Positions 29,380-64,000 of a DNA stretch of 64,000 nucleotides are shown piece by piece. Under the pieces are notes generated by a model. That model worked only from the letters and a program-made list of their open reading frames with translations. It was not told the DNA's origin and ran no database searches. Source of the DNA: an uncultured bacterium (GTDB lineage: Bacteria > Auribacterota > Erginobacteria > Erginobacterales > CAZKCI01); the NCBI GenBank assembly GCA_964551475.1, contig CAZKCI010000117.1, positions 471-64,470 on the forward strand, given 5' to 3'. The position numbers and the translations under genes are program-made. Positions within the stretch are counted from its first letter, which is position 1. Each line of letters begins with the position of its first letter.

Positions 29380-29604
29380 TTCGCTTTGTCGGCCCGGACT
29401 GCATCCGGTCGCGTGGGTGATGCAGGCCCGGCCCATCTCCGGGCGGTGGGAGAGGTAGGCCCGGACTGTGTCCGGGCGTGTGGGATTGCAGCGTCGCCCC
29501 GATTTCCAGTACCTGCATACAAGGATCGGGGCCTCGATCTATCGGGACCCCAATCCATCGTGGGTATCGATGCCGTTCTGTCTAAAAACGATGTCGCGAA
29601 CTTG

Positions 29605-44388: not shown

Positions 44389-47034
44389 ATGAGAAATACT
44401 CTCGATACGATCTTCTTTTCCCTTCGACGGATGGCGATGGCGGGTTTGGCGGCGATTGCCGCGCTGTATCCATGGGCCGGGCGGGCGGAAATACCCGCGG
44501 GATGGCCCGGGGAGATAAACCGCCTCATCTATCCCACCATCGGCCGCCCGCTGATCATCCGCCCGGGCGACTCCTTCACACTGGAGTTCGACTGCATCGG
44601 CGACGGGGCGGGCGGTTCGCAACCGGCGGTCTCCGTCTGGAATGTTTCCCTGGCTTCCAGCAACGACCAATGGGCCACCGAGACCGATTGCGTAGTCTGG
44701 TCGGCCCTGACCGGCGTCTCCGAAAGCTGGCCGGGCGATTCCACGGCCGATTACTGGTCCGGCTCGGGCCCGTGGGCCGGCCGCGAGGTATGGCGGGTGA
44801 CGGTCGGCGTCCCCCTGGGGACGCGGGCGGACCTCTACGACCTCTACGCGAGCGCCTGGGACGGGGAAACGATCGCCGACGATCAGCCCCACGCCGTCCA
44901 GGTGATCGACGAGTTCAAGGACAACTACACCTTCATCCAGATCAGCGATTTTCACATCAACGATCCCCGGGGGCCGTCCGTCATCCTCGACCTCCCCGGC
45001 CCCCATCCCCGCTCCCAGGAGTTCATCGGTTACCAGTACATCAAGAAGGCGATCGACGAGGTCAACCGGATCAACCCCGACTTTGTGATCATCACCGGCG
45101 ACCTCGTCTTCGGTGTCCCCTTCTTCGTCGAATACCCCTACGCGTCCACCGGCGTCACCGACTACACCGGCGACCACCCCGACTGGAATGGCGAATACGC
45201 CCAGGCCTACCAGCACCTTCTCCGCTTCGAGGTCCCGGTCGTCTGCCTTCCGGGCAACCACGATTCCTACAACCTGGAGACCGCCGAGGGCGATCCGCTG
45301 GAGGGGCACTTCCGCCAAGACGGGGCCGAGATCTGGCCGACCATGTTCTCCCCCCGCTATTTCGACTGGAACTACGGCGACAAGTGCCACTTCACCTGCT
45401 TCTGGTCCTATGACAAGGCGCCGATCGACCGGACATTTTCCGACTGGTCGGTCCTGATCCCGGAGGCGCAGTTCCCTCCGATGGACGGCGGCGGCGGACA
45501 GGTGCGGTGGAATGCGGGCGGATTGCCGCCGGCCTGGAACGATCAGATGTCCTGGATCGAGCAGGATCTCACCGCTGCCCAGGGAAATTTCAGTCTCCTG
45601 GCGATGGCCTGCCACAACCCCTTCTACGGGACCTACTCGAACTCTGACAGCTTCACCGACCTCACCAGCCGGAATAAACTCCAGGAACTGAGCCGGACCT
45701 ATGGCGTGGGTATGGCGCTTTCCGGTCACACCCACCTCGACCACGTCTTCACCGACACCACCGGCGGGGCGGACATCCTCCACGTCAACACCACTACCAC
45801 CAGCTTCAACACCTCCGAGTACCCGGGCTTCCGGCAGATCACCGTCGAGAGCGGGGCGGTGGCAAGCTATTACTACCTTGCCCCCGACTTCTCCTGCCCG
45901 AGCTACGAGAACACCATCCTCGCCAAGCACTCGACCGTCACCGACGCCTTCAACGCCATGACCAGGCTCGAAACTCCTTCGGTCGCCGCCTGGTTCAGCT
46001 CGACCAACCCCGCCGCCGTCCACAAGGAATTTGAGTGCTGGAACCACCTGACCGAAGGGGAACCGCCGGTTTCCCTGGACAACACGGTGGCGGATTTCGT
46101 CATGCCCGACCTCGGCGAGGTCGGGTCCTACCTGGTCACCGGCGGCAGTCTCCTTCAGTACTGGCGCCCGGCGCCGGGCTACCTGACCCTCCAGGTCAGG
46201 GCGGACGGCATCCCGCCGGGGGGAATGGGCCTCATCACGGTGGAGGCGCCGGTCCCCGGAGCGGAGCACCTGGTCCTGCAGTCCGGCGACTACGACGGCG
46301 ACGGCAAGTCGGATATCGCCGTCTTCCGCTCCGGGAACGGCCGGTGGTCTGTCCGGGGGCTCGGCAACGTCTACTTCGGAACGGCGGGGGACATTCCGGC
46401 CAGCGGCGACTACGACGGCGACGGGCATGCCGAGATAGCCGTCTTCCGTCCCGGAAACGGCCTCTGGGCGGTCAGGGAGGTCACACGCTTCTTCTTCGGC
46501 GGGTCGGACAGCGTCTCCGCCCCGGCCGACTACGACGGCGACGGCTCCTGCGACGCCTCCGTCTTTTCCGGGGGAGTGGGATTATGGAGCGCGCGGGGGA
46601 TCACAGCGGCCTTCTTCGGGCAAACCGGCGACCTCCCGGTCCCGGCCGATTACAACGCGGACGGGCGGACGGAGTTCGCCGTCTTCCGCCCCTCGTCCGC
46701 TCTCTGGGCGGTCTACGGCGGCGGGCGCTATTACTTCGGTCAGAACGGGGATGCTCCGGTTCCGGGCGCCTACTGCTGGCCGGGAGACGCTTCGCGGACC
46801 GCTCCGCTGGCGGAGTACCCGGCGGTCTTCCGTCCCATGAACGGCCTCTGGGCGGTATTGGGCCATACTCGCCTGTATTTCGGGATGGACGGCGACAGTC
46901 CCGTCCCGGGGGCCTTCGGGGGCGGGATCGTCGACGACTTCGCCGTCTTTCGGGGGAGTTCGGGGATGTGGGGGGTGAGGGACCAGACGCGGTGTTTCTT
47001 CGGGACGGCGGGCGACCTGCCGGCGACAAGATAG
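44389..47034 (+). CDS. Secreted calcineurin-like metallophosphoesterase with a six-repeat C-terminal module
   Basis: GGAGG RBS. Motifs FIQISDFHIND, VIITGDLV, LPGNHD, SGHTH. Module at 46285-47031, ending ...GDLPATR. Confidence 0.8.
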   Translation: MRNTLDTIFFSLRRMAMAGLAAIAALYPWAGRAEIPAGWPGEINRLIYPTIGRPLIIRPGDSFTLEFDCIGDGAGGSQPAVSVWNVSLASSNDQWATETDCVVWSALTGVSESWPGDSTADYWSGSGPWAGREVWRVTVGVPLGTRADLYDLYASAWDGETIADDQPHAVQVIDEFKDNYTFIQISDFHINDPRGPSVILDLPGPHPRSQEFIGYQYIKKAIDEVNRINPDFVIITGDLVFGVPFFVEYPYASTGVTDYTGDHPDWNGEYAQAYQHLLRFEVPVVCLPGNHDSYNLETAEGDPLEGHFRQDGAEIWPTMFSPRYFDWNYGDKCHFTCFWSYDKAPIDRTFSDWSVLIPEAQFPPMDGGGGQVRWNAGGLPPAWNDQMSWIEQDLTAAQGNFSLLAMACHNPFYGTYSNSDSFTDLTSRNKLQELSRTYGVGMALSGHTHLDHVFTDTTGGADILHVNTTTTSFNTSEYPGFRQITVESGAVASYYYLAPDFSCPSYENTILAKHSTVTDAFNAMTRLETPSVAAWFSSTNPAAVHKEFECWNHLTEGEPPVSLDNTVADFVMPDLGEVGSYLVTGGSLLQYWRPAPGYLTLQVRADGIPPGGMGLITVEAPVPGAEHLVLQSGDYDGDGKSDIAVFRSGNGRWSVRGLGNVYFGTAGDIPASGDYDGDGHAEIAVFRPGNGLWAVREVTRFFFGGSDSVSAPADYDGDGSCDASVFSGGVGLWSARGITAAFFGQTGDLPVPADYNADGRTEFAVFRPSSALWAVYGGGRYYFGQNGDAPVPGAYCWPGDASRTAPLAEYPAVFRPMNGLWAVLGHTRLYFGMDGDSPVPGAFGGGIVDDFAVFRGSSGMWGVRDQTRCFFGTAGDLPATR

Positions 47035-47065
47035 TGACTAGTTGACCAGTGACCAGGAGGATAGC

Positions 47066-49003
47066 ATGAGAAAGATGGCGATGTGTTTCGGGATACTGGC
47101 CGCCGGCCTGATTCCGATTGTCGGGGTAAGCGCGCCGGTCAACTTCCGTGTCATCCACGAGTTCGACGGCTCGAACGGCGCGGCGCCCTATGGTCACCTG
47201 ATCTCCGTTTATGGCCTGCTCTACGGGATGACCGCAGGGGATACGGACGGCAACACGGGGACGGTCTTCTCCATCGCCCCCGATGGCTCCGGCTACACCG
47301 TCCTTCACAAATTTGCCGGGCCGCCCGATGACGGGCAATGGCCCCACGGAAGCCTTTTCTTCCAGAACGATGGTTTCTACGGGATCACCTGGGCGGGAGG
47401 CTGCTCCGATAATAATTGCGGCAACCTGGACGGCACGGGCTGCGGCACGCTTTTCTCGATGCAGAGCGACGGTTCCGGCTACCAGGTCTTCTGGACATTC
47501 GCCTGCGGGGGAGGAGACCAGGGTGTCGCCACGCCGGGCGCCCACTTTGTCTCCGACGGCAGCGTGCTCTACAGCACCGCGGAAATGGGCGGGCCCTACA
47601 GCTTCTGGGGCGGCGGCGCGGTCTTCTCCATCCGACCGGACGGAACCGAGTTTCAACTCCTCCACATCTTCAGCGACACCGACGGGGAGCACCCCGCGGC
47701 CGGCCTGCTCCTGAACCAGGGCGTTCTGTACGGGACGACCATGGCCGGGGGCGAGAACGCCGACGGGACGGTATTCTCCATCGGGACCGATGGCTCCAAT
47801 TTCACCACCCTTCACCAGTTCGACGGAGACGACGGCACCGGCTGCTTCTCCGCGCCGGTCATGGCCGGCGGGAGGCTCTTCGGCGCGACCGCGCTGGGCG
47901 GCGAGGACGGCAACGGGAACCTCTTTTCGCTCCGTCCCGACGGCTCGGACTTCCGGGTTATCCACGATTTTGCGGAGGAAGACGGCGGACCGATGGAGGG
48001 CGTGATCCTCGCCGGCGATACGCTGTACGGAGTCACGGTCGGGAACGGCCCCGATGCGTTCGGGACGATCTTCTCGATCAAGACGGACGGGAGCGATTAC
48101 ACGGTCCTCCATCGCTTCAGCTATGACGACGGGTCCTGGATTGACGGCCATTTGCTCCTGGTCGGGAACACCTTCTACGGTCTCGCCTCCCACGGCGGTT
48201 CCGGCGAGAATGGCCTCATCTTCGCTTTCGACCGGCCGGACCCCGACTATATCGTCCTGGGATCGGGCGATTACAACGGGGACTCGACGTCCGATGTCGC
48301 GGTTTTCCGTCCTTCTTCGGGACTCTGGTCGATCCGTTCCCTGAGCCGGGCATATTTCGGAACCGCCGGCGACATCCCCGCTCCCGGGGATTTCGACGGT
48401 GACGGGACAGCAGATCCCGCGATTTATCGCCGCGCTGCCGGTCTCTGGGCGGTGCGCGGAATCACGAGGCTTTCGTTCGGGGGGGTGGACGATCTGCCTG
48501 TCCCCGCCGACTACGACCGCGACGGCCGCTGTGACCCCGCGCTCTTCAATCAGTCCTCCGGCCTGTGGCATGTGGCTGGTTTGACCCGCGTGCAGCAGGG
48601 GACGCTGGGCGACCTGCCGGTCCCCGGCGACTGGAACGGGGACGGCTCCGCCGATGCGGCCGTCTTCACTCCCTCCTCCGGTTTGTGGTCCATCCGGAAT
48701 TTCACTGAATCTTATTTTGGACTTCCGGGAGACATCCCGGTTCCCAGGGATTACGACGCGGACGGCAGGACAGACCGGGCGATCTTCCGGCCCTCGACGG
48801 GGATGTGGAGGGCGGCGTTATCGGCGGGAGGCGGGATGACGGCCGGCCTGGGGTCGGAGAGAGATCTGCCGGTCCCGGCTGAGTATTCAGGGACCGGTCC
48901 GGCCGTTCCGGCGATCTTCCGCCCGATCAGCGGCCTCTGGGCGGTGAGGGACCTGACCCGTCTCTATCTCGGTTCGACCGACGATATGCCGATGACACGC
49001 TGA
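47066..49003 (+). CDS. Secreted Gloeo_Verruco (GloVer) repeat protein with a six-repeat C-terminal module
   Basis: AGGAGG RBS and a signal peptide. Repeats of the form G(T/A)(V/L)FS(I/L)..DGS....(L/I)H.F. Module at 48266-49000, ending ...DDMPMTR. Confidence 0.75.
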   Translation: MRKMAMCFGILAAGLIPIVGVSAPVNFRVIHEFDGSNGAAPYGHLISVYGLLYGMTAGDTDGNTGTVFSIAPDGSGYTVLHKFAGPPDDGQWPHGSLFFQNDGFYGITWAGGCSDNNCGNLDGTGCGTLFSMQSDGSGYQVFWTFACGGGDQGVATPGAHFVSDGSVLYSTAEMGGPYSFWGGGAVFSIRPDGTEFQLLHIFSDTDGEHPAAGLLLNQGVLYGTTMAGGENADGTVFSIGTDGSNFTTLHQFDGDDGTGCFSAPVMAGGRLFGATALGGEDGNGNLFSLRPDGSDFRVIHDFAEEDGGPMEGVILAGDTLYGVTVGNGPDAFGTIFSIKTDGSDYTVLHRFSYDDGSWIDGHLLLVGNTFYGLASHGGSGENGLIFAFDRPDPDYIVLGSGDYNGDSTSDVAVFRPSSGLWSIRSLSRAYFGTAGDIPAPGDFDGDGTADPAIYRRAAGLWAVRGITRLSFGGVDDLPVPADYDRDGRCDPALFNQSSGLWHVAGLTRVQQGTLGDLPVPGDWNGDGSADAAVFTPSSGLWSIRNFTESYFGLPGDIPVPRDYDADGRTDRAIFRPSTGMWRAALSAGGGMTAGLGSERDLPVPAEYSGTGPAVPAIFRPISGLWAVRDLTRLYLGSTDDMPMTR

Positions 49004-51091: not shown

Positions 51092-52192
51092 CTACGAGCG
51101 GAGGGTGATGCGGAGGATCTCGGCCGGTCGCCAGAGGCGCATACGCGGGCCCCAGGTCCCCGTGCCGCGGCTCACGATGACCGTCAGCCCATCATCTTCA
51201 TATGCCCCCTCGAAAAATGCGTAGTGCGGACGGACGAAATAGCTGAAAGGCCAAATCTGCCCCGCGTGTGTGTGGCCGCATAGCATCAAACCCACACCCT
51301 TTCCTTCTAAATCCTCGGGCCGAGGAGGGGAGTGAGAGAGCATGATTGTCGCGCCAGTTGGACGGCCCGCGAGAGCTTTCCCGAAAGGATCGCCGGTTCT
51401 CCGGACCGATCGCATCCCCCCGCCGATGTTGTCCACACCCGCCAGGACCAGGCCTGGCCGCACCTCGGCCCACGTGTCGTGAAGGACACGGAAGCCTCCC
51501 GCGGTGATAAGTTCCTTGCCGGCACCATCGTGGCCGTAGGATTCGTGATTGCCGAGGACCGCCCAGAGTCCCAGGGGAGCGGACAGGCGGCGGAGGATGG
51601 GGGGCAGGGCTTCAGGGACCTGGCCGTGGCCTTCGAAGGCATCCCCGAGCAGGACCACCAGGTCGGGATTGAGTTTCCGGACCTGATCGACACGGGCCGA
51701 GAGCCATTCCTCTCCGAGGAGTGTGCCGAGATGGAGGTCCGAAAGGGCAACGATCGTCGTTCCGTTGAGCTCCCCAGGTAAGCCTGCGAGGCGCACCTCG
51801 TAGTCGATCACCACAGGGGGACGGAGACCCTGCACCAGTGCGACCGCCGAGAGAGCGCTGCCCGCGATCAAAGCCCAGCCCCTCAGGACTGGGGCAGTGC
51901 GCCGGAATAGGAAACCGAAGCCGGTGGCCACGTCGACCGCGAACAGGCAGGCGAAAAGCAGGAAGAGCGCGGCCATCCAAGTCATGCCGACCAACTCGAC
52001 AGCCGCGGCCACCGTTCCCGCTCCGTTGTGGCCGAAGTGAAGGCCGAGGACGAAGACCCCCCAGAGGGCCGCGCCCGCCAGGGGGAGGAAGCCGCGATGC
52101 AGTCGGCGCTTCAGGGCCGGTATCGAACCGGCTCGCCAGAAGACATAGAGCTGCAGGACGGAAAAGAGAACAGTGAGGATGGGTCCAAACAC
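51092..52192 (-). CDS. Membrane-anchored metallophosphoesterase (YkuE-like)
   Basis: GTG start with an AAGGAGG RBS. About 4 N-terminal TM. Motifs IVALSDLHLG, VVLLGDAFEG, LGNHE, CGHTHAGQ. Confidence 0.85.
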   Translation of the reverse strand: MFGPILTVLFSVLQLYVFWRAGSIPALKRRLHRGFLPLAGAALWGVFVLGLHFGHNGAGTVAAAVELVGMTWMAALFLLFACLFAVDVATGFGFLFRRTAPVLRGWALIAGSALSAVALVQGLRPPVVIDYEVRLAGLPGELNGTTIVALSDLHLGTLLGEEWLSARVDQVRKLNPDLVVLLGDAFEGHGQVPEALPPILRRLSAPLGLWAVLGNHESYGHDGAGKELITAGGFRVLHDTWAEVRPGLVLAGVDNIGGGMRSVRRTGDPFGKALAGRPTGATIMLSHSPPRPEDLEGKGVGLMLCGHTHAGQIWPFSYFVRPHYAFFEGAYEDDGLTVIVSRGTGTWGPRMRLWRPAEILRITLRS

Positions 52193-52280
52193 GCTTCCTC
52201 CTTGTTATTGCGTGAAGCATCCCACGAAAACGCCTGGAAGGCAACCGGCGGGGAGGGACGGGGAGCCGGCCGCGCCGGCT

Positions 52281-52470
52281 TGGTCAAGGCGCTGGCCGGA
52301 TATTCCTCAAAGTATTATTCGGCCAGATATAAATTTACAAAGATTATTGACTTCATAACCATCCCCGTGATAGCGTCCCTTTCAACCATGGGAGGTTATC
52401 GTGCTTTTCTCGGGTGAGGTTAGGTGGCTTTCCAACCCGGCGCTGGAGAGTAGTCCAGGCCGGGTATTCC
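52281..52470 (+). repeat. Cassette-leader module, copy 1 (hairpin + promoter-like + structured leader + hairpin)
   Basis: tggtcaaggcg; ctggccg-N21-cggccag (52292-52326); TTGACT (52347-52352)-N18-TAGCGT; cccgg..ctgga-N6-tccag.ccggg (52436-52464). It lies 57 nt upstream of the RelA/SpoT-like gene. Confidence 0.85.
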
Positions 52471-53756: not shown

Positions 53757-54050
53757 AATGCGCCTTTTCAATCGAGAGGAAATCAGGCCGGAAAAGAATC
53801 ATGTTCTGGCAACGCCACCGCCCTGCCGATCACGGTCGGCGAAATCAGCGGCGGGGCGGCCTTGACGCTGCGGATGGCTCAGCAGAACCGCAAGCCATAC
53901 CTGCACATCGACTTGGAGTCGGTTCCGGCAGATAAGGCGATTCGGCTAATCCAGTCATGGTTAGGCCGGATAAAGTCAGGGATTCTAAACATCGCCGGTT
54001 CCCGAGAATCGAAGTCACCTGGGATTGATAAGAAGGCTTACGCCGTCCAA
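53757..54050 (+). pseudogene. C-terminal fragment of a cpYpsA / MoCo-carrier-like SLOG protein
   Basis: ...GNATALPITVGEISGGAALTLRMAQQNRKPYLHIDL...ILNIAGSRESKSPGI matches the C-terminal signature (..GGT..T......KP......LNVAGPRES..PGI). There is a stop at 53754-53756 just upstream and no N-terminal half. The reading frame runs into module copy 2. Confidence 0.5.
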
Positions 54051-54240
54051 GTCAAGGCGCTGGCCAGATATTCCTCAAAGTATTCTTCGGCCAGAATTAA
54101 ATCCCTAAAGATTATTGACTTTTCAACCTTCCCCGTGATAGCGTCCTTTTCAACCATGGGAGGTTCCCGTGTTGTTCTTGAGTGAGGTCAGGTGGTGTTC
54201 TAAACCCGGTGCTGGAGGTTAGTCCAGGCCGGGTATTTTT
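54051..54240 (+). repeat. Cassette-leader module, copy 2
   Basis: Same order of elements as copy 1. TTGACT at 54115-54120. Terminal hairpin followed by TATTTTT. It lies 79 nt upstream of the PLD gene, with an extra 11-bp hairpin gcggtccggtt-N10-aaccggaccgc in between. Confidence 0.85.
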
Positions 54241-54318
54241 ATTCGATTGTCTCCGCCCCGCCGAAGCGGTCCGGTTTGTCGCGATTAACCGGACCGCTAT
54301 TCGCGCGGGAAGAAACCA

Positions 54319-56061
54319 ATGGTCTTGGCCAATCGTAGGGGGTGCGCATTGACTGCGGAATTTCAAGTCAGCGGCCAGAATGTCTCGGCGCTGTTCACGT
54401 TAACGATTCACCGCGGTGAGGGTATGGCCCTGCTTGCGATGAACTGGAAAAAGGGGGAACCCCCGCAGGACTTTGTCGGTTTCGCCATCGAATATAGTGA
54501 GCCGAATGGCGAAAAATTCTACGTCTTGAAAAACCGCTTGGGCTTCTGCGATGCGAGCGGCAACGTCAATCCAAACGTGCTGTCGACCAGGCTCTCGCCG
54601 ATCCAGAAATTCCGCTGGGTGCATTTCCCCTACCATGCCGAGCTCCCCGGCACATTCGTTTACCGGGTCACCCCGGTATTTATGAATGGAGCTGACGAGT
54701 TGAGCTATGGCGAAGCACAAGAGGCCGCCATTGAGCTCCGCCGCGAGACCTATCCGGGTTTGCTCAACGTCGCCTTCACCCGCGGATTCATCTCGTCGCA
54801 GGCATTCGTTCGGAACTACAAGTACGCCGGGGCCATCTCCACGCTATTGCCGGAGAAAGCGTCCGACGGGTTGACCTTTGTTCCGACCCATCCCAAGACC
54901 GATGAGGCCCTGGCGTGGATGGGCTTCGAAGCGCGGAATGCGATCCTTGATGTGCTCGACAAGGCCATCGCCGACGAGAAGGCTCAGGTCCGCGTGGTGG
55001 CTTATGATCTCAGCGAATGCGATGTTGTGTCGCGTCTGGAGAAGCTCGGGCCACGCCTAAAGATCATCATCGATGACAGCCAAGACCATGGCGAAGCGGA
55101 TTCGGGCGAAAGGCAGGCGGAAACGCGCCTGTCGGCCTCGGCGGGCGCCGCCAACGTCAAGCGGCAGCACGTGTCGAAACTCCAGCACAACAAGACCATC
55201 GTGATCGACGGCCCCGAAAGCCAGACGGTCGTGTGCGGCTCGACCAATTTCAGCTGGCGCGGATTATTCGTGCAATCGAACAATGCGATGATTCTGCATG
55301 GGGCAAGCGCAGTCGCACCATTTCTGGCGGCATTCGAGAACTATTGGTCGCTGAAACCGGCAGGTTTCAAGAACTCTGCATCCGCGGGATGGACCGATCT
55401 CGGCCTGGATGGGATCGACGCGCGCGTAGCGTTTTCTCCCCACGCGCCATCGAACGCGTTGTTGGAAACCATCGCTGACGACATTGGAAACAACACCACA
55501 TCGTGCCTATTCTTTTCTCTGGCATTTCTCGCTCAAACCCCGGGGCCCATTCTGGAAGCAATCAAGAAGGTGTCGGCAGACGACAAGCTTTTTGTCTATG
55601 GCCTCTCCGACCGGAAAGTAGGCGGTCTCGATCTGCAGAAGCCTGACGGCGATGTCTCGTCGGTCTTTCCCGCAGCGCTGGCGAAGAACCTCCCGGAGCC
55701 GTTTTCCCAAGAACCAACCGGAGGCGGGGGCATCCGCATGCATCACAAATTCATCGTTATCGACTTCGACAAGCCGACCGCCCGGGTCTATCTCGGCTCG
55801 TATAACTTTTCCTCGCCCGCGGACACCAAGAACGGAGAAAACCTGCTTCTGATCCGAGACCGCCGGATCGCGGTCTCCTATATTGTCGAGGCGCTGCGCA
55901 TTTTCGACCACTACCATTTCAGGGTGACCCGGCAGGAAGCCAAGAAGGCCAAAAGGAAGCTCATACTTGCCACGCCGCCGCGGAAAGAGGGGGAAGAGCC
56001 TTGGTGGGCCAAGTACTATATGAACGCCCGGAAAATCCGCGATCGCGAACTCTTCGCTTAG
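54319..56061 (+). CDS. Phospholipase D-superfamily (two HKD motifs) protein with a beta-rich N-terminal domain
   Basis: LQHNKTIVID...GSTNFS and MHHKFIVID...GSYNFS (HxKxxxxD...GSxN, twice). Confidence 0.85.
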   Translation: MVLANRRGCALTAEFQVSGQNVSALFTLTIHRGEGMALLAMNWKKGEPPQDFVGFAIEYSEPNGEKFYVLKNRLGFCDASGNVNPNVLSTRLSPIQKFRWVHFPYHAELPGTFVYRVTPVFMNGADELSYGEAQEAAIELRRETYPGLLNVAFTRGFISSQAFVRNYKYAGAISTLLPEKASDGLTFVPTHPKTDEALAWMGFEARNAILDVLDKAIADEKAQVRVVAYDLSECDVVSRLEKLGPRLKIIIDDSQDHGEADSGERQAETRLSASAGAANVKRQHVSKLQHNKTIVIDGPESQTVVCGSTNFSWRGLFVQSNNAMILHGASAVAPFLAAFENYWSLKPAGFKNSASAGWTDLGLDGIDARVAFSPHAPSNALLETIADDIGNNTTSCLFFSLAFLAQTPGPILEAIKKVSADDKLFVYGLSDRKVGGLDLQKPDGDVSSVFPAALAKNLPEPFSQEPTGGGGIRMHHKFIVIDFDKPTARVYLGSYNFSSPADTKNGENLLLIRDRRIAVSYIVEALRIFDHYHFRVTRQEAKKAKRKLILATPPRKEGEEPWWAKYYMNARKIRDRELFA

Positions 56062-56787: not shown

Positions 56788-59493
56788 ATGAAAACGATGA
56801 AAATGATCTGTGCGGGATTGACGGGAATCCTTTTTGTCTTCCTTTTCGCGCCCGTCGCGCCGGCGGAAAATCTTTTGGACGGACGCGATCCCGGGTTTGA
56901 ATCCAGTACCCCTAACGGCAAATATCCGGATTCGGGGTATTGGCAGATGGGTTGGCTTGGGGAAGCGGGGGCGGTTTGCACATCGACGGCCGCTTATACT
57001 GGCGGCGCCGGCCTGTGGGAATACACCGGCACTTCCGGGACCGATTGGTGGTCGGGCCAATATCAGGATATTTCCGCTAACCCCGGAGAAACCTTCACGG
57101 GAAGCGCCTGGGTAGAGTCGCAATATACATGGGTGAGCGGGAGCAAGGCCCTCGTCAGGCTGGCCTTCCTGGATGCCTCGCATAATGTCCTGGCTACGAA
57201 AGACAGCCCGGCCATAACTGCTGCCTCCTGCGACTGGCAACCACTCACCGGACAAACTGATTCCGCCCCGGCCGGCACAGCGTTCATCAGATTTCGTCTG
57301 TACCTGGAAAAGCCCAATGGCTTATCCGGCCAGAGCATCGCCACCTTCGACGATTGCAGTCTTGAACGGGCCGCGCCGCAACCGCAGCTTTCCGTAAACC
57401 CTTCGGTATTGGGGTACGGCAATGATCTTGTGACCCTTTCGTTCGGCATCACGAATTCCGGAGCCGGCACGGTCTCCTGGACCATAACTAAAAATGCCGA
57501 CTGGATAGGCGTTTCTCCCGCGAGCGGAAGCACGACGACGGAAACCGACACCGTAACCGTGACGGTCAACAGAAGCGGATTGAAATTATCCGACTATAGT
57601 AGCGCCCTGGTCGTAACGTCGAACGGCGGGAATAAAGATGTCGACGTCATCATGGAGATCCCCCCGGCGACCGCCGTGCCCGCCGCTCCGGCCATAGTGG
57701 CCGTGAGCGGATACCGGCTTATGGTCAGGCGCAGGCTGCCGGACGGAACACTTGACGTTGCTCGTCCGTATACAATTAAAGGCGCCGCCTGGGATCCGGC
57801 CGGTATCGGCACTACCTCGGGATATTCCAGCCGCCGCGCCGAATTCGGGAACTGGTATCGGCTTGACCTGCAGCTTTTAAAAGAGATGTCTGCCAATACG
57901 GTGTACCTGTTTCTCGATCCCGGTACCGACCCGACCATGATTAATACCGCGCGGGCCGTGCTCGACTACTGCTATCAAAACGGTGTCATGGTTATAATGA
58001 CCGTCGATGAAGACGGTACGGATAATTCAGCGAATATCGCTCAGGTAATGAATGCGTTTAAGAACCACCCGGCGATACTGATGTGGGCGCTCGGGAACGA
58101 GTGGAACCTCTTGCGCCCGGATAAGCAGCTCTATTACGAGCATTACAGCACGCTCGCGGCGGCCGCGGCGGCGATGCAGACAAATGCCCTGCAGGTCCAA
58201 TCGCTGGACGCTAATCATCCGGTCGCTTCCATCCTAGGCGAGATAAATAATCCGACGCCGGCGGAAGTAGATTCTATCGTCAATAATATCTGTACGGCGG
58301 TCGACGTATGGGGGGCCAATATATACCGGGGGCCGGAATTTTACGCACTCTTTACCGAATGGAAAAATATGGCCTCCAAGCCGCTCTTTCTCTCCGAATT
58401 CGGCACAGACGCTTTTCACTCAACGTCATGGTGGCCCGTAGTCGGATACGAGGACCAGGCGGCGCAGGCGAACTATACCAATACGTTGTGGTTCGATATG
58501 GCGCAGGAGCTTTCCGCGGATGATACCGCGAAAGTTTGCCTGGGGGGCACTGTTTTTGAATGGAACGACGAATGGTGGAAAACGGCGACCGGTAGTCCGA
58601 GCGTCCATGATCCCGGCGGTTATGTGACTACGTGGAACCCCAATGCTCATCCCGATGGCTTTGCCAATGAAGAATGGTTCGGCATCGTTAGCGTAGGCCG
58701 CGAAAGACGGCGGGCGTATTACAAGCTCCAATACCAGTATCAACCGGGAATTAGCGTTATTGATTCCGGAGATTTCAACGGCGACGGGACGAGCGACATC
58801 GCGGTCTTCCGGGGGAGTTCGGGGACGTGGTCGGTGCGGAATATCACGCGGGTCTACTTCGGATCTTCCGCCGACTTTCTCGTCCCCGGAGATTATAAGG
58901 GAGATGGCACCACCGACGTCGCCGTCTTCCGGGATAGCAGTGGCCTGTGGTCGGTTAGGGATCTGACTCGGTTCTACCTGGGAAGCAACGGGGATGTTCC
59001 GGTCCCCGGGGACTACGATGGGGATGGCGCCGCCGAGGCGGGATTGTTCCGGCAGTCCGCGGGGCTGTGGTCGATCCGGAACCTGTCCCGGGTGTATTTC
59101 GGATTTACCGGCGACCGGGCAGTCCCGGGGCACTACGATGCCGGCAGCGTCAAGGATATCGCGGTCTTCCGGGATAGCGCGGGGATGTGGTCGGTGCGCG
59201 ATATCACGAGGTTTTATTTCGGTTCCGCGACCGATGACCTGGTCCCGGGGGACTATGGCGGGGCAGGGAAGTGGGAAGGGGGGATCTTCCGCTCGTCTAC
59301 GGGGTTCTGGTCGATCCGGAACGTGACTCGATTCTATCTGGGGACCTCGACCGATCGTCCTCTCCCGGCGGACTACGATGGAGATGGGATAGATGAGGAG
59401 GGAATCTTTCGCGACTCAAATGGGATGTGGTCAGTGCGAGACCTGACCAGGGTATATTTCGGTACAACGGGAGATAGCCCAGTGACGAGATAA
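56788..59493 (+). CDS. Secreted clan GH-A (TIM-barrel) glycoside hydrolase with CBM-like and BACON-like domains and a six-repeat C-terminal module
   Basis: Signal peptide. LSVNPSVLGYGNDLVTLSFGITNSGAGTVSWTI...WIGVSPASGS (BACON-like). MWALGNEWN (acid/base NE) and LFLSEFGTDAF (nucleophile E). Module at 58768-59490, ending ...GDSPVTR. Confidence 0.8.
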   Translation: MKTMKMICAGLTGILFVFLFAPVAPAENLLDGRDPGFESSTPNGKYPDSGYWQMGWLGEAGAVCTSTAAYTGGAGLWEYTGTSGTDWWSGQYQDISANPGETFTGSAWVESQYTWVSGSKALVRLAFLDASHNVLATKDSPAITAASCDWQPLTGQTDSAPAGTAFIRFRLYLEKPNGLSGQSIATFDDCSLERAAPQPQLSVNPSVLGYGNDLVTLSFGITNSGAGTVSWTITKNADWIGVSPASGSTTTETDTVTVTVNRSGLKLSDYSSALVVTSNGGNKDVDVIMEIPPATAVPAAPAIVAVSGYRLMVRRRLPDGTLDVARPYTIKGAAWDPAGIGTTSGYSSRRAEFGNWYRLDLQLLKEMSANTVYLFLDPGTDPTMINTARAVLDYCYQNGVMVIMTVDEDGTDNSANIAQVMNAFKNHPAILMWALGNEWNLLRPDKQLYYEHYSTLAAAAAAMQTNALQVQSLDANHPVASILGEINNPTPAEVDSIVNNICTAVDVWGANIYRGPEFYALFTEWKNMASKPLFLSEFGTDAFHSTSWWPVVGYEDQAAQANYTNTLWFDMAQELSADDTAKVCLGGTVFEWNDEWWKTATGSPSVHDPGGYVTTWNPNAHPDGFANEEWFGIVSVGRERRRAYYKLQYQYQPGISVIDSGDFNGDGTSDIAVFRGSSGTWSVRNITRVYFGSSADFLVPGDYKGDGTTDVAVFRDSSGLWSVRDLTRFYLGSNGDVPVPGDYDGDGAAEAGLFRQSAGLWSIRNLSRVYFGFTGDRAVPGHYDAGSVKDIAVFRDSAGMWSVRDITRFYFGSATDDLVPGDYGGAGKWEGGIFRSSTGFWSIRNVTRFYLGTSTDRPLPADYDGDGIDEEGIFRDSNGMWSVRDLTRVYFGTTGDSPVTR

Positions 59494-59543
59494 GGAGCAA
59501 GCAGAAAACCATAAAGCGGTTAGGTTAGGTAAGGAGGGACGAG

Positions 59544-59777
59544 TTGACCGCCATCGAGCCCCTGCTTGAAGAGGTGACGAGGGAAGACAGCCTTAGGACC
59601 GACGATCCCGGTGTGGAAGCGGCGCGCGAATGGCGGGAACGCGATCTGGCGCGTCTGAATAGGGGCGTCAGACGCCTGGTTGAACCGGGAGTTTTTTCGG
59701 TCGTCCTGACCGCGAAGCTGTGGAACCTGAAAGAAAACCTTCTGCGCCGAATGAACATACACCGGAATTCCCACTGA
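59544..59777 (+). CDS. Small hypothetical protein (77 aa)
   Basis: TTG start 6 nt after AAGGAGG. No motif. Confidence 0.4.
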   Translation: MTAIEPLLEEVTREDSLRTDDPGVEAAREWRERDLARLNRGVRRLVEPGVFSVVLTAKLWNLKENLLRRMNIHRNSH

Positions 59778-59781
59778 GCCT

Positions 59782-59970
59782 TGGTCAAGGCGCTGGCCAG
59801 ATATTCCTCAAAGTATTATTCTGCCAGATTAAATACCATAATGATTATTGACTTTTCGACCTTCCCCGTGATAGTATCCCTTTCAACCATGGGAGGTTCC
59901 CGTGCTTTTCTTGGGTGAGGTCAGGTGGTGCTCTAAACCCGGCTTTGGACGTTAGTCCAGGCCGGGTTTT
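59782..59970 (+). repeat. Cassette-leader module, copy 3 (best promoter and terminator)
   Basis: ctggcca-N21-ctgccag; TTGACT (59848-59853)-N18-TAGTAT; cccggc-tt-tggac-gtta-gtcca-g-gccggg followed by TTTT (59938-59970). Confidence 0.85.
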
Positions 59971-60116
59971 GAATTTTATAGGATCAACACCCCAAACCAC
60001 ATAGGGATGCTTGAAGATATTTATCGGAGACACATTACTGAGGAATCCATCAATATCTCATTGATATTCGATGGAGTTATGCATCTCTTAAAACGATAAG
60101 CGAGTAGCTCACATAT

Positions 60117-60926
60117 ATGAGTCTTCACTCAAGAATATATTCTATTAGATATAGGGTATTCACTTCTATTCAGGGTACTTTAGGATTAATATTAGTAGCT
60201 TGGGGTGCAGCATTAAAAGCAGATCCATTAGCTCTATCAAGGCAATGGGTATTTGCAGGGATATTACTAAGAAGTATGCAGACAAATGCATACCTTGTAA
60301 TTCCCATCGGTACGGTTATTGTAGGTTGCTTACAGCTCTATAAGCGGCATGTGGGCCACCCGAGTGTATGGAATGCGGTACATTCATGGCTTGATGCATT
60401 TAGGGCAAATGTATTTGAAGATTATCCCGCCGAGCAGGACCATCGAGTTACCCTTTTTAAGCATAAAGATTATCATTTATCATGGTATACACTATTTCGA
60501 AAACCATGGCTAGGTTTCCTAATTCCCATAGAACGATCTGGAGAGGTTACGCAGAATCCGAGTGTAATATTTTCCGCCCCTAGGAGTAATCCAAATCGAG
60601 CGGAGGGCATAGCAGGCTATATTTGGAAAACAAAGGAATGCCATTATGTTTGCAATCTACCAGAATTAAATGATGCAAGCTCCGATAAAACATGTAAAAC
60701 ATACTCTAGAAAAAGCAAAACGAATAAGAAATATGTTCTTAAAAGGGCAAAAACCGGGAAACCCTTCGCTAGATCATTTTGGGGCACGCCCGTAGAAGTG
60801 AATGGCAAGTGCTGGGGAGTTATTGTAATTGATAGTCGCCATCCCGAGCTCGCCGGAAAAGATGAAATAAAGGCAATATTTCAACCGATGGCGAGCGTTC
60901 TGGGCAAACTATTAGAATATGTATGA
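60117..60926 (+). CDS. Membrane-anchored (2-3 TM) GAF-like domain protein
   Basis: TM segments GTLGLILVAWGAAL and AYLVIPIGTVIVGCLQL. C-terminal HRVTLF..., GIAGYIWKTKECHYVCNLPE and SFWGTPVEVNGKCWGVIVIDS resemble GAF core strands. AT-rich codon usage unlike the host genes. Confidence 0.55.
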   Translation: MSLHSRIYSIRYRVFTSIQGTLGLILVAWGAALKADPLALSRQWVFAGILLRSMQTNAYLVIPIGTVIVGCLQLYKRHVGHPSVWNAVHSWLDAFRANVFEDYPAEQDHRVTLFKHKDYHLSWYTLFRKPWLGFLIPIERSGEVTQNPSVIFSAPRSNPNRAEGIAGYIWKTKECHYVCNLPELNDASSDKTCKTYSRKSKTNKKYVLKRAKTGKPFARSFWGTPVEVNGKCWGVIVIDSRHPELAGKDEIKAIFQPMASVLGKLLEYV

Positions 60927-60941
60927 ATACGGAGATATCCA

Positions 60942-61382
60942 ATGTCAGCATGGATTGCCATTGATAATCGTTCTGTAGACGTTATCAATAAAAAGATTAG
61001 AGAAGGTGTCACTGTCGAAGCATCAGTATCACCATATGATATTCCTAGTGCCGTAAGAGGGTATATGAGAGTTGAAGACGGCTGGTTTGTTATTGAATAT
61101 AAGTACTTGTCCGATGAACCAGTCATTAAATTGCATGAAGACGCAAAAATTCGAATATATATTGGCATAAATAGTGGCCGATTGATTCAATTGCATCTTA
61201 ACGCGATCATTCTGGAAGAAGATAAAGATCAAATGCAAAGGAAATATGGGATCGAAAGAATTGCGAAGGATGCGATCAAATACTTCAATGAACTAGATCG
61301 CAATATCTTCAACACAATGAGAATGAATGTATCTCAAAATGTTATAGAGCTGAAAAAGGATGAGATATTTGCTGAAATATAA
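60942..61382 (+). CDS. Hypothetical protein (146 aa), likely co-transcribed with the TM-GAF gene
   Basis: GGAGA RBS and a 15-nt gap after the previous stop. No motif. Confidence 0.55.
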   Translation: MSAWIAIDNRSVDVINKKIREGVTVEASVSPYDIPSAVRGYMRVEDGWFVIEYKYLSDEPVIKLHEDAKIRIYIGINSGRLIQLHLNAIILEEDKDQMQRKYGIERIAKDAIKYFNELDRNIFNTMRMNVSQNVIELKKDEIFAEI

Positions 61383-61397
61383 TTATGGAATTGAATA

Positions 61398-61681
61398 AGG
61401 GAACCGAAGCCGGTGGCGACATCGACCGCGAACAGGCAGGCGAAGAGCAGGATGAGCCTGGCCATCCAAGTCATGCCGACCAACTCGACAGCCGCGGCGG
61501 CAGTCCCCGATCCGTTGTGGCCGAAGTGAAGGCCGAGGACAAAGACCCCTCAGAGCGCTACGCCCGCCAGGGGGAGGAAGCCCCAAGGCAGATGGCGCTT
61601 CAGAGCTGGTATCGTCCCAGCGCGCCAAAAGACATAGATCTGCAGGACGGAAAAGAGAACAGTGAGGATGGGTCCAAACAC
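61398..61681 (-). pseudogene. Duplicated, inactivated 5' fragment of the metallophosphoesterase gene (paralog of 51910-52192)
   Basis: The reverse complement reads VFGPILTVLFSVLQIYVFWRAGTIPALKRHLPWGFLPLAGVAL*. The TGG of the intact copy is TGA here, and homology ends after about 94 codons. Confidence 0.8.
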
Positions 61682-61768
61682 ACGGCCTCCTAAATGTTGC
61701 GTGAAGCATCCCATGAAAACGCCCGGAAGGCAACCGGCGGGGAGGGACGGGGAGCCGGCCGCGCCAGC

Positions 61769-61823
61769 TTGGTCAAGACGCTGGCCGGATATTCCTCAAA
61801 GTATTCTTCGGCCAGAATTAAAT
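61769..61823 (+). repeat. Cassette-leader module, copy 4 (left part only: GTCAAG...hairpin...ATTAAAT)
   Basis: ttggtcaagacgctggccggatattcctcaaagtattcttcggccagaattaaat. It diverges from the other copies immediately after ATTAAAT, where the ATG at 61822 begins. Confidence 0.85.
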
Positions 61824-62985
61824 GGAAGCATGGGAAGTAGCAAAACGGGAGAAGGCCAGAGTGGTTACTGACACTGATAGGTTACTAGCGGAACTGAGGC
61901 ATACGTGCAGTTCTATCACCCCTGCTTCCCTTTTGACGTGCGATTGTCCATCGAATACGGCAGGTAGTTTCTATCGCATCGCAAGGCAATACTGCCAAGA
62001 AGGTCAACGTCGACTTGGAAATCCCATAATCGCTATTAACATCATGCGGGAACTTGAGAAGTGCGGTGTGAACCGCACTCTAATCGACACCTTCTGCAAG
62101 AATGAGTTCCAGGATGACATCGTCTATCCGCATATTGTAATAGAACTATTAGCGTATGCCTTTGCGCTTGATATCGGTGTTTTTTGGTCTGAAGGGGAGG
62201 TATCGCGGCGATGTCCAGAACTGGAGTTTGATGAGGACGGCTTGCTCATTGGCCCCAGGGGCAAGATCCGCTTTGGGAGAGACGGTGTGCGATGTGGTAA
62301 ATTCCTCATACCGTACTGTGACGAGATACAGAGATATGGTCTTGGCTTATCAGGTGGCTTCTTGGATCGATTGTCATCTCTTATAGAGCAAAAGACACCC
62401 TCCAAGGTTGGGTTACGTGTCGCAAGCGACATGGTTTATGATCCCTCTAAGTTCTCGCTATATGTCACCAAGGCATATATCCGTGGGCCGAAGGGCCTAT
62501 CCGCCACGTTGCTTAACAGCCCAGATTTTCCGGAGAACATGCGCGGCACAGTCACCGTGCATGAACGGCTATCTCGTGATCCGGTCCTCAATCTCACCTT
62601 CCCGCTTGTTCGTACTGAGATCATGTGGAGTTCGAAAGGCAGAACCAAGACGGTACAAATCGAGGAGTTGATTCCTAGTGACGACTGGCACAACCATGAC
62701 AGGGCAAAAATATCAAATAGGTACTTGCATGCTATATGGATGCCAGAAAAAGGCTTTTTCGATCATGTAGACGGTGCCGTTAGGTCATACGCAAAAGATG
62801 TCTACGATACTCGCCTGTCGAATGATATCAAGAGCGCCAGAGAAGTCCCAGCTGACTACCGAAAACTATTTCTAATAAATGCGGATCTTCCTTTAGACAT
62901 TTGGTGCGACCTATCGATGCGGTATTTCTATCAGAATGAATTGGTGTTGGAGTATCTTGGTGGCCCCAAGAACGACAATCAATAA
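61822..62985 (+). CDS. Hypothetical protein (387 aa) upstream of the reverse transcriptase
   Basis: Long AT-richer ORF. No recognised motif. Start uncertain (no clear RBS). Confidence 0.55.
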   Translation: MEAWEVAKREKARVVTDTDRLLAELRHTCSSITPASLLTCDCPSNTAGSFYRIARQYCQEGQRRLGNPIIAINIMRELEKCGVNRTLIDTFCKNEFQDDIVYPHIVIELLAYAFALDIGVFWSEGEVSRRCPELEFDEDGLLIGPRGKIRFGRDGVRCGKFLIPYCDEIQRYGLGLSGGFLDRLSSLIEQKTPSKVGLRVASDMVYDPSKFSLYVTKAYIRGPKGLSATLLNSPDFPENMRGTVTVHERLSRDPVLNLTFPLVRTEIMWSSKGRTKTVQIEELIPSDDWHNHDRAKISNRYLHAIWMPEKGFFDHVDGAVRSYAKDVYDTRLSNDIKSAREVPADYRKLFLINADLPLDIWCDLSMRYFYQNELVLEYLGGPKNDNQ

Positions 62986-63150
62986 ATCGGTTTCTAGATG
63001 AAGTCTCGGATGGGGTGGCCAAAACGCTAAACCGTCGCGGCGGTTAAGCGTAGAATTAGGAATTCGAAGCCGCAGTCCATCCCCCGATTAGCGCGGTCGT
63101 TAGGACTATGTTCCATTAAAGGGACAATCACGGAATACCTTCGTCTCATA

Positions 63151-63172
63151 GTGTAATGCTATAGCATTACAC
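63151..63172. promoter_or_regulatory. Perfect 22-bp palindrome, 17 nt upstream of the RT start
   Basis: gtgtaatgcta/tagcattacac. It could be an operator or a 5'-UTR/ncRNA stem. Confidence 0.6.
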
Positions 63173-63188
63173 GAGGGTTTAGAAGACT

Positions 63189-64000
63189 ATGGCTCTCATA
63201 AACGACATTCTTCAACGAGGCTACTTTCCAAAAGAATTGCCTCCCCCATTCACAACCGCAAATTATGCACAATCTTTTGTAAGCCTAGCTTCCCCGATGA
63301 CCAAAGAATCCTTATGCCTTCGATATTCATATTCCAAGTATGCGTGTATCCGACGAGGGCTAGCTATTCCGAATCCTGCCCAAATGGTTGCGCTCGCAAA
63401 AGCTGTATCAGACAACTGGGAAGCAATCATTAGGCATTGCAATAAATCGGTGCTTTCGCAGACCGTACCTAGGCTGGACGCTGAGAGATCTATAACCGGA
63501 ACGCATGACTTGAACGAAATCCCTGCTATCCGGGCCAAGATTCGTATCGGAGCGAAATATATTCTAAAAGCCGACGTAGCGAATTTCTATGGGAGCATCT
63601 ATACCCATGCTATCCCATGGGCGTTTCATTCAAAACCAATCGCCAAGAGAGATCGGAGTGTCAGTAAGTCAAGAACCGGTGGTCAGGCTCTTTTTGGGAA
63701 TTTGCTCGATCAAGCGTCCCGAGATATACAATCCGGGCAAACGATTGGAGTCCCTATTGGGCCCGATACGTCGTTCGCAATTGCGGAGTCTGTGCTTTGC
63801 GCAGTGGATTCACACTTTACAAGGAAAATCGGTGCTCCAATCACTGGCTTCCGCTTTATTGACGATTACGAATTTGCCTGTGATAGATTATCGAAGGCCG
63901 AATCTATAAGGGCGATATTGCAAGACGCTTTGATGGAATTTGAACTTCAGCTAAACTCGAGAAAGACCCGCATCATCGAATTGCCGGACGTATTGGATAC
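63189..64000 (+). CDS. Reverse transcriptase, UG/Abi-like (defence-associated type), 3'-truncated by the window end
   Basis: Not in the supplied track because it has no stop in the window. My translation is MALINDILQRGYFPKELPPPF...KADVANFYGSIYTHAIPWA...GQTIGVPIGPDTSFAIAESVL...TGFRFIDDYEFAC...LQLNSRKTRII. That gives RT motifs 1-2 (D..NFY.SI), 4 (G.P.G...S..(A/L)E), 5 (F/Y-x-DD) and 6-7. Confidence 0.8.
   Translation, partial: MALINDILQRGYFPKELPPPFTTANYAQSFVSLASPMTKESLCLRYSYSKYACIRRGLAIPNPAQMVALAKAVSDNWEAIIRHCNKSVLSQTVPRLDAERSITGTHDLNEIPAIRAKIRIGAKYILKADVANFYGSIYTHAIPWAFHSKPIAKRDRSVSKSRTGGQALFGNLLDQASRDIQSGQTIGVPIGPDTSFAIAESVLCAVDSHFTRKIGAPITGFRFIDDYEFACDRLSKAESIRAILQDALMEFELQLNSRKTRIIELPDVLD

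What the first reader, a model, noticed from the sequence alone, without database searches (positions are those of the whole stretch)
61822..64000. UG/Abi-type reverse transcriptase with an uncharacterised 387-aa upstream partner and a perfect 22-bp palindrome in the spacer
An ORF missing from the supplied track (63189 to beyond 64000, no stop) encodes clear RT motifs: ADVANFYGSIYTH, GVPIGPDTSFAIAESVL, RFIDDYEF and LNSRKTRI. Its N-terminus, GYFPKELPPPF, is unlike group II intron, retron (no YADD/VTG context seen so far) or DGR RTs, and it resembles defence-associated UG/Abi RTs.

The RT is preceded by a 387-aa protein of unknown function that begins exactly where module copy 4 breaks off. The 203-nt spacer (62986-63188) could encode a template or ncRNA. 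It contains gtgtaatgcta/tagcattacac (63151-63172), 17 nt before the ATG, and a gcggc...gccgc stem at about 63037-63074.

The system is cut by the window end, so C-terminal RT domains and any downstream effectors are unseen.
Basis: partly seen in the sequence, partly recalled or inferred. Interest (0 to 1): 0.7.

Follow-up and report, generated by a model that had tools for sequence, protein, structure and literature searches.

The report
DRT6-type defence reverse transcriptase, unrelated neighbour
The reverse transcriptase is an ordinary new member of the known single-gene anti-phage system DRT6 (UG12), and the upstream protein is not its partner but a separate, uncharacterised gene family that sits in defence islands next to many different systems.

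Summary

An identical public contig completes the RT at 513 aa. It matches the DRT6/UG12 profile over its full length (1e-150). Its model superposes on the DRT6 hexamer cryo-EM structure (9wy8, TM 0.87). It has the catalytic aspartates and the C-terminal helical domain. DRT6 is a known stand-alone RT that makes protein-primed, untemplated ssDNA.

The partner idea fails. Across 47 fetched loci, the two families co-occur only in this locus. This includes the closest relatives of each gene (65% identity).

No RNA family matches the spacer, and no related locus has a similar spacer. The palindrome is not a chance feature (0.01 expected per window), but it is unique to this locus. It is most likely a local operator or 5'-UTR hairpin.

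After the RT stop there is only a convergent gene, so there is no downstream effector.

The upstream protein is the more interesting part. Its family has at least 1,184 cluster representatives and no Pfam or PADLOC match. Its confident model has no fold match. Its neighbours are repeatedly defence genes (Hachiman, Mrr, GmrSD, BREX, TIR and others).

The parts
61398..61821 (.). Module copy 4, which forms the left boundary of the low-GC block. It is an 88-90% identical duplicate of the 5' end of the metallophosphoesterase gene at 51092-52192 (- strand), here a truncated fragment, plus about 125 nt of that gene's upstream region.
   Evidence: (family D7)
61822..62985 (+). ORF of 387 codons, with a likely native start at GTG 61861 (374 aa). 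It belongs to an uncharacterised defence-island protein family with no domain or fold match. It is not a conserved partner of the RT.
62986..63188 (+). Intergenic spacer of 203 nt. It is moderately structured as RNA (z = -3.0), has no Rfam match, no sigma-70-like promoter or intrinsic terminator by consensus scan, and no similarity to any related locus.
63151..63172 (.). Perfect 22-bp palindrome GTGTAATGCTATAGCATTACAC at -38 to -17 from the RT start. As RNA it forms a 9-bp stem with a UAUA loop (centroid -12.1 kcal/mol). It occurs only in this locus.
63174..63178 (+). Shine-Dalgarno-like GAGGG, 10 nt before the RT start codon. In the predicted fold it pairs with codons 1-3.
63189..64000 (+). 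First 270 codons of a 513-aa DRT6/UG12-type reverse transcriptase. The stop would fall at window-equivalent position 64730. Motif A Asp129 is at 63573-63575, and catalytic Asp225/Asp226 (FIDD) are at 63861-63866.

Best explanation
The two genes are neighbours in a horizontally acquired defence hotspot. They are not a two-gene system.

The downstream gene is a complete 513-aa member of DRT6 (UG12), a class 1 UG/Abi reverse transcriptase made of an RT domain fused to a C-terminal alpha-helical repeat domain. By homology to the characterised DRT6 and DRT4 enzymes (inferred, not shown here), it should assemble into a hexamer. It should then use one of its own side chains as primer to make single-stranded DNA without any template. 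Host 3'-5' exonucleases normally remove that DNA. During infection a phage ssDNA-binding protein protects it, and its accumulation kills or arrests the cell (abortive infection).

The upstream gene belongs to a separate, uncharacterised family. That family travels on its own through defence islands and is probably an independent defence or anti-mobile-element gene.

The 22-bp palindrome just upstream of the RT ribosome-binding site is a local feature of this locus. It is most likely an operator for a dimeric regulator or a 5'-UTR hairpin that sets RT expression. It is not a template.
For: RT identity:
- PADLOC Drt6 scores 1.1e-150 and 500.9 bits over residues 4-500 of 513. The Mestre-series Drt4/UG15 model scores 266 bits.
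- The best PDB sequence match is 9wy8 at 4e-67 over residues 4-498. UG15/DRT4 scores 1e-27.
- The AF2 model (pLDDT 92) superposes on 9wy8, 'hexameric DRT6', with TM 0.87 and rmsd 2.6 A. DRT4 gives 0.71 and AbiK or Abi-P2 give 0.5-0.6.
- D129, D225 and D226 are invariant in 40 relatives.

Mechanism from the literature:
[quoted passage not shown] It is toxic with T5 ORF55 or in sbcB-knockout cells, and it acts by abortive infection (PMC12783706).
- DRT6 consists solely of an RT that forms hexamers (bioRxiv 10.64898/2026.04.29.721553).
- UG12 defends against T5 and ZL-19, and this depends on the RT active site (PMC9226505).

Independence of the two genes:
- A profile-HMM six-frame scan of all 47 loci finds both families together only in L001, L027 and L028, which are this same locus.
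- The upstream protein's relatives at 65, 60, 57, 49 and 47% identity have no RT nearby.
- RT relatives at 65, 58, 54 and 52% identity lack the family.
- The 65% RT relative has an unrelated HExxH protein upstream instead.

Context:
- The block has 0.46-0.50 GC against flanks of 0.55-0.67.
- Neighbours of the upstream family are Hachiman, Mrr, GmrSD, KAP NTPase, TIR, a Ppl-like ATPase, PDC-M68B, type IIG restriction-modification, AbiJ, BREX and Schlafen/AlbA_2.
Against: - The two genes share strand and composition, and both lie in one discrete block of about 2.9 kb.
- The consensus scans found no terminator and no promoter in the 203-nt spacer, so co-transcription is not excluded.
- Only about 14 RT neighbourhoods out of more than 1,350 relatives were inspected, and 10 of these came from viral contigs at 26-36% identity.
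- The priming residue of DRT6 is not known to me. No biochemical property was tested here.
- No regulator gene that could bind the palindrome was identified.
Confidence: 0.8

Rival explanations
1. The pair is a lineage-specific two-gene variant. In this reading the upstream protein acts as sensor, regulator or effector for the DRT6-type RT and is co-transcribed with it.
For: - Same strand, same GC content (about 0.47-0.49) and a 203-nt gap with no predicted terminator.
- Both genes lie in one block that starts at the module breakpoint and ends shortly after the RT stop.
- An independent short-read contig (L001, 2971 bp) consists of exactly these two genes.
Against: - The families do not co-occur in any other locus, even at 65% identity on either side.
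- DRT6 works as a single gene in E. coli (PMC12783706, PMC9226505).
- The upstream family sits beside many unrelated defence systems.
Confidence: 0.1
2. The spacer encodes an ncRNA that serves as template or scaffold for the RT, as in DRT2, DRT9, DRT3 or retrons.
For: - The spacer folds better than its shuffles (z = -3.0).
- It contains a non-random palindrome.
Against: - There is no Rfam match at E <= 10 in the window stretch or at E <= 1 across the whole unit.
- No other locus has a similar spacer.
- The closest RT relative has only 25 nt between the upstream gene and its own start.
- The RT scores far lower against ncRNA-dependent types: Drt3b 107 bits and retron St85 28 bits against a cut-off of 235.
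- DRT6 synthesis is template-independent (PMC12783706).
Confidence: 0.04
3. The RT is part of a mobile retroelement (group II intron) or of a diversity-generating retroelement.
For: The generic RVT_1 domain matches.
Against: - The group II RT/maturase model scores 32 bits against a cut-off of 300.
- The C-terminal half is the DRT6-type helical repeat domain, not an X/maturase domain.
- No intron RNA domains or any other Rfam family were found up to 850 nt past the stop.
- No template or variable repeat pair was found.
Confidence: 0.01

Closest known systems
DRT6 (UG12), class 1 UG/Abi reverse transcriptase. Reference: Sphingopyxis sp. PHR10625.1, cryo-EM structure PDB 9wy8.
   Same: - Full-length profile match.
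- Same two-domain architecture, RT plus C-terminal helical repeats, with TM 0.87 to 9wy8.
- The catalytic xxDD aligns with DRT6 D223/D224, and the N-terminal G(Y/F)(F/L)P..LPP.F motif is shared.
- Stand-alone gene in a defence island.
   Different: - Only about 28% identity in the structural alignment.
- It sits in a small metagenomic clade: about 25 full-length clusters at 50% identity or more.
- It has a locus-specific palindrome in front of the ribosome-binding site.
- Activity, oligomeric state and phage range were not tested.
DRT4 (UG15)
   Same: Same class and fold (TM 0.71), a single-gene system, protein-primed untemplated ssDNA synthesis, and the same trigger logic as DRT6 (PMC12783706).
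   Different: - The NCBIfam Drt4 equivalog scores 239 bits against a cut-off of 450.
- Sequence match to solved UG15 structures is 1e-27, against 4e-67 for DRT6.
- The priming Tyr125 of DRT4 aligns with His106, and there is no tyrosine in that loop.
AbiK / Abi-P2 (lactococcal and P2-prophage abortive-infection polymerases)
   Same: Class 1 UG/Abi, an RT fused to a helical repeat domain, and protein-primed untemplated DNA synthesis. The fold matches at E 1e-10 to 1e-11.
   Different: Much more distant. Only the RT core aligns by sequence. The priming tyrosines lie elsewhere (Tyr44 and Tyr61, per PMC12783706).

Membership tests
DRT6 / UG12 (class 1 UG/Abi RT) | Best and full-length match to the UG12/Drt6 sequence profile | tested here: met
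   PADLOC PDLC03748 Drt6 scores 1.1e-150 and 500.9 bits, covering protein 4-500 and profile 4-482 of 511. Next in the same model series are Drt4/UG15 at 266 bits and UG30 at 179 bits. Older PADLOC 'Drt4' models (PDLC02179 and PDLC02177) also score 462-468 bits, so PADLOC labelling alone is ambiguous.
DRT6 / UG12 (class 1 UG/Abi RT) | Closest solved structure is DRT6, over both domains | tested here: met
   By sequence, 9wy8 scores 4e-67 over residues 4-498. By fold, 9wy8_A 'hexameric DRT6' gives TMq 0.87 and rmsd 2.6 A over 432 columns, while DRT4 gives 0.70-0.74.
DRT6 / UG12 (class 1 UG/Abi RT) | Intact RT catalytic motifs (motif A Asp and motif C xxDD) | tested here: met
   D129, D225 and D226 (FIDD) are present and invariant in 40 relatives. 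They align with the DD of 9wy8.
DRT6 / UG12 (class 1 UG/Abi RT) | C-terminal alpha-helical repeat (alphaRep) domain fused to the RT | tested here: met
   The AF2 model is all-helical from model residue 222 onward, which is about residue 287 of the full protein, with pLDDT mostly above 90. This part superposes on the DRT6 structure.
DRT6 / UG12 (class 1 UG/Abi RT) | Stand-alone: no conserved partner gene and no ncRNA | tested here: met
   There is no conserved neighbour in about 14 distinct RT loci. There is no Rfam match. The spacer is not conserved.
DRT6 / UG12 (class 1 UG/Abi RT) | Hexamer, protein-primed template-independent DNA synthesis, and abortive-infection defence | not testable with these tools
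   Known for the reference protein only (PMC12783706; bioRxiv 10.64898/2026.04.29.721553).
DRT4 / UG15 | Reaches the NCBIfam equivalog threshold | tested here: not met
   NF041749 Drt4 scores 238.8 bits against a cut-off of 450.
DRT4 / UG15 | Conserved priming tyrosine (Tyr125) | tested here: not met
   In the phmmer alignment Tyr125 falls opposite His106. There is no tyrosine between residues 95 and 123, and none is conserved there in the clade. The alignment in this loop is approximate.
Group II intron RT | RT/maturase protein plus intron RNA domains | tested here: not met
   TIGR04416 scores 32 bits against a cut-off of 300. No Rfam intron family was found in window 59000-64000 or in L027 8300-12200.
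Retron | Retron-type RT with an adjacent msr-msd ncRNA | tested here: not met
   NF038233 scores 27.8 bits against a cut-off of 235. There is no Rfam match. Retron structures give a fold TM of only 0.25-0.31.
Two-gene system (upstream protein plus RT) | The two families co-occur repeatedly across genomes | tested here: not met
   They co-occur only in this locus among 47 loci. The closest relatives of each gene lack the other.

The most novel reading that the evidence does not exclude
The upstream protein would represent a new stand-alone anti-phage (or anti-mobile-element) gene family with a previously unseen fold. The family has at least 1,184 representatives at 50% clustering, including long forms of about 700 aa. 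A less likely version of this reading is that, in this lineage, it has been recruited as a sensor or regulator of the DRT6-type RT.
Probability: 0.35. Interest if true: 0.6.

Novelty: new member of a known kind. Interest (0 to 1): 0.3.

Why it matters
The RT adds a divergent, environmental member to DRT6, whose mechanism was worked out only recently. It shows that the class-1 architecture and catalytic residues are kept at about 28% identity, while the DRT4 priming tyrosine is not.

The practical lesson is that adjacency in a defence hotspot does not make a partner gene.

The part worth following up is the upstream family. It is large, unannotated, confidently folded with no structural match, and repeatedly sits beside Hachiman, BREX, restriction enzymes, TIR and KAP NTPase genes. 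That is the usual signature of an undiscovered defence gene.

Tried and rejected
**Partner hypothesis: rejected.**
- tblastn and profile-HMM scans of 47 loci found no co-occurrence.
- The closest relatives of each gene were looked up one by one.

**The 378-aa protein upstream of the closest RT relative (L020) as a remote homologue of the upstream protein: rejected.**
- hhalign gives probability 0.1%.
- It is an HExxH family.

**ncRNA or template in the spacer: rejected.**
- Rfam at permissive thresholds found nothing.
- blastn of the spacer against all loci found nothing.
- No palindrome or shared inverted repeat lies upstream of four RT relatives.

**Function of the upstream protein: no result.**
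- Pfam, PADLOC, NCBIfam and PHROGs gave no match.
- A PDB profile search gave nothing.
- Foldseek against PDB and BFVD gave no hit with E < 0.001. The best hits were TIPRL and a few triphosphate-tunnel enzymes at probability 0.5 or less, which I do not treat as evidence.
- Pfam and PADLOC on longer relatives gave no match.
- The family has no relatives in IMG/VR viral contigs.

**Other attempts.**
- The sigma-70 promoter and intrinsic terminator scan of the spacer found nothing. The host's promoter type is unknown.
The 448-aa call from the same locus was used instead.
- A literature search for 9wy8 found no indexed paper. Its identity came from the PDB title.

Full report
**1. Observation**

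The region reads as described.
- ORF 61822-62985 (+) has 387 codons.
- The spacer is 62986-63188.
- A frame opens at ATG 63189 and has no stop up to 64000. It carries all the quoted motifs.
- GTGTAATGCTATAGCATTACAC at 63151-63172 is a perfect palindrome.
- It is the only perfect palindrome of 20 bp or more in the window. Shuffles give 0.01 per window for 11-nt arms.

**2. Completing the RT**

An exact look-up of the upstream protein returned a 2,971-bp short-read contig, L001. It is 100% identical to window 61794-64000 and continues past the window end. The RT is 513 aa.

The parent JGI contigs (L027, L028) show what follows the RT stop, which falls at window-equivalent position 64730. There are 467 nt of non-coding DNA and then a convergent 818-aa FG-GAP gene. 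There is no downstream effector.

**3. What the RT is**

- PADLOC ranks Drt6 (UG12) first: 1.1e-150 and 500.9 bits over residues 4-500. In the same model series, Drt4/UG15 scores 266 bits, UG30 179 and AbiK 118.
- Two older PADLOC 'Drt4' models also score about 465 bits, so I checked other sources.
- NCBIfam Drt4 reaches 239 bits against a cut-off of 450. Group II intron, retron and Drt3/5 models are far below threshold.
- Against PDB sequences the best match is 9wy8 (4e-67, residues 4-498). UG15/DRT4 entries follow at 1e-27, then Abi-P2 and AbiK.
- An AF2 model of the 448-aa call from this locus has pLDDT 92. It superposes on 9wy8_A, 'Cryo-EM structure of the hexameric DRT6', with TM 0.87 and rmsd 2.6 A. 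DRT4 gives about 0.71, and AbiK or Abi-P2 give 0.5-0.6.
- D129, D225 and D226 are invariant among 40 relatives.
- The DRT4 priming Tyr125 aligns with His106. No tyrosine is conserved in that loop, so priming must use another residue.

**4. How it should work (from the literature, inferred for this protein)**

- UG12 was named DRT6 after it protected E. coli from T5 and ZL-19 in a manner that depended on the RT active site (PMC9226505).
- DRT6 oligomerises and synthesises DNA without a template. The product is covalently attached to the protein.
- DRT6 acts by abortive infection. It becomes toxic when co-expressed with the T5 DNA-binding protein ORF55 or in sbcB-knockout cells, like DRT4 (PMC12783706).
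- It 'consists solely of an RT' that forms hexamers (bioRxiv 10.64898/2026.04.29.721553; summary table in PMC13213688).

**5. Is the upstream protein a partner?**

It has about 50 close relatives, none annotated.

I fetched their loci from genome and metagenome collections and by exact look-up. None contains an RT. This includes the relatives at 65% identity (L026, whose downstream gene starts MAKLGTKKNPAIVNV...) and at 60, 57, 49 and 47%.

In the other direction, RT relatives at 65, 58, 54 and 52% identity and 15 viral-contig relatives lack the upstream family.

A profile-HMM scan of six-frame translations of all 47 loci finds both families together only in L001, L027 and L028, which are this locus.

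The 65% RT relative (L020) does have a tightly linked 378-aa gene upstream. That gene belongs to a different, large family with an HExxH motif and has no profile similarity to the upstream protein here.

**6. What the upstream protein is**

- There is no Pfam, PADLOC, NCBIfam or PHROG match.
- A profile search finds 1,184 cluster representatives, including forms of about 700 aa. None has a known domain.
- The AF2 model is confident (pLDDT 89, pTM 0.86). It shows an N-terminal helical domain followed by a beta-rich C-terminal half that carries the invariant polar residues.
- The model has no significant match in PDB or BFVD.
- Its neighbours are a fused Hachiman HamA-HamB, Mrr, GmrSD, KAP NTPase, a TIR protein, Ppl-like ABC ATPases, PDC-M68B, a type IIG restriction-modification enzyme, AbiJ, Schlafen/AlbA_2, BREX, IS21 and toxin-antitoxin genes.
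- That pattern points to a stand-alone resident of defence islands. Its biochemical activity remains unknown.

**7. Spacer and palindrome**

- There is no Rfam match at E <= 10 and none at E <= 1 across the whole unit, including the 3' flank.
- The consensus scans find no promoter or terminator.
- The spacer folds with z = -3.0. The fold includes the palindrome hairpin and a second hairpin that pairs GAGGG with codons 1-3.
- The spacer has no counterpart in any other locus, so covariation cannot be tested.
- Because the enzyme family needs no template, I read the palindrome as a local expression-control element, either an operator or a 5'-UTR hairpin. This is an inference.

**8. Context**

The two genes form a low-GC block (0.46-0.50) between flanks of 0.55-0.67. 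The block starts exactly where a repeated module breaks off. Earlier copies of that module precede other low-GC blocks, which carry a PLD/DrmC-like nuclease, a cpYpsA fragment and a GAF protein. The region looks like a recombination hotspot that accumulates defence genes.

**9. Verdict**

- The 'UG/Abi defence RT' reading is right.
- The 'uncharacterised partner' and 'template in the spacer' readings are not supported.
- The RT is a new member of a known kind.
- The upstream family is the lead worth following.

Noticed in passing
window 51909-52470, 54051-54237, 59784-59970, 61398-61822: A repeated module. The full copy is the 5' end of a metallophosphoesterase gene (- strand, 51092-52192) plus its upstream region. 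All four copies share the core GGTCAAGGCGCTGGCCGGATATTCCTCAAAGTATTATTCGGCCAG, an imperfect inverted repeat. Three copies continue into a TTGACT promoter-like box and a roughly 95-nt structured stretch that ends in a GC-rich hairpin followed by Ts. Each copy precedes a low-GC gene block, which looks like a recombination hotspot or cassette array. Rfam gives only weak hits (rnk_pseudo, 23 bits).
   Followed up: partly
window 61822-61863: The first ATG of the 387-codon ORF is created at the module junction. GTG 61861, preceded by GGGAGAAGG, matches the start of the closest relatives and would give 374 aa. The gene caller on the parent contig chose a still later start (313 aa).
   Followed up: partly
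window 60117-61382: A very low-GC block (0.40) holds a 269-aa protein with N-terminal membrane segments and a weak GAF domain, followed 16 nt later by a 146-aa protein with no match. It may be another small defence or signalling pair in the same hotspot.
   Followed up: no
window 53862-56061: A cpYpsA (SLOG) C-terminal fragment runs into module copy 2. It is followed by a 580-aa two-domain PLD-family protein with a DrmC-like match (1e-12).
   Followed up: partly
L020 451-1587: The closest RT relative (65% identity) is preceded, 25 nt upstream, by a 378-aa protein with an invariant HEFGH motif. That protein belongs to a large, strongly conserved unannotated family of at least 376 clusters and is unrelated to the upstream protein in the window. 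Whether it works with that RT is unknown.
   Followed up: partly
L008 1040-5362 and L011 2913-6865: In two independent metagenome loci a relative of the upstream protein directly follows a 930-975-aa Ppl-like ABC/SMC ATPase. In L008 there is a 100-aa ORF between them, with overlapping stops and starts. This may be a real operon partner for part of the family.
   Followed up: partly
L032 6001-8088: A 695-aa long form of the upstream family, carrying a C-terminal extension of about 310 aa with no known domain, lies about 1.5 kb downstream of a BREX cluster (BrxC/PglY, BrxL), with an aminotransferase gene in between.
   Followed up: no
L027 11470-11540 (about 64850-64920 in window numbering, beyond the window): Downstream of the RT stop there are two tandem GGCCTTCGGCC / GGCCTTGCGGCC hairpins inside a short direct repeat (ATCGGCCTT.GGCCT.G.AGGA). 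They may be terminators or REP-like elements marking the right edge of the low-GC block.
   Followed up: no
window 28681-29381, 34507-35235, 46293-48990, 58776-59495: 120-nt periodic repeats sit inside several large genes and encode FG-GAP/VCBS-like repeat units, for example in the 901-aa protein at 56788-59493. These are ordinary repeat-protein genes flanking the hotspot.
   Followed up: no
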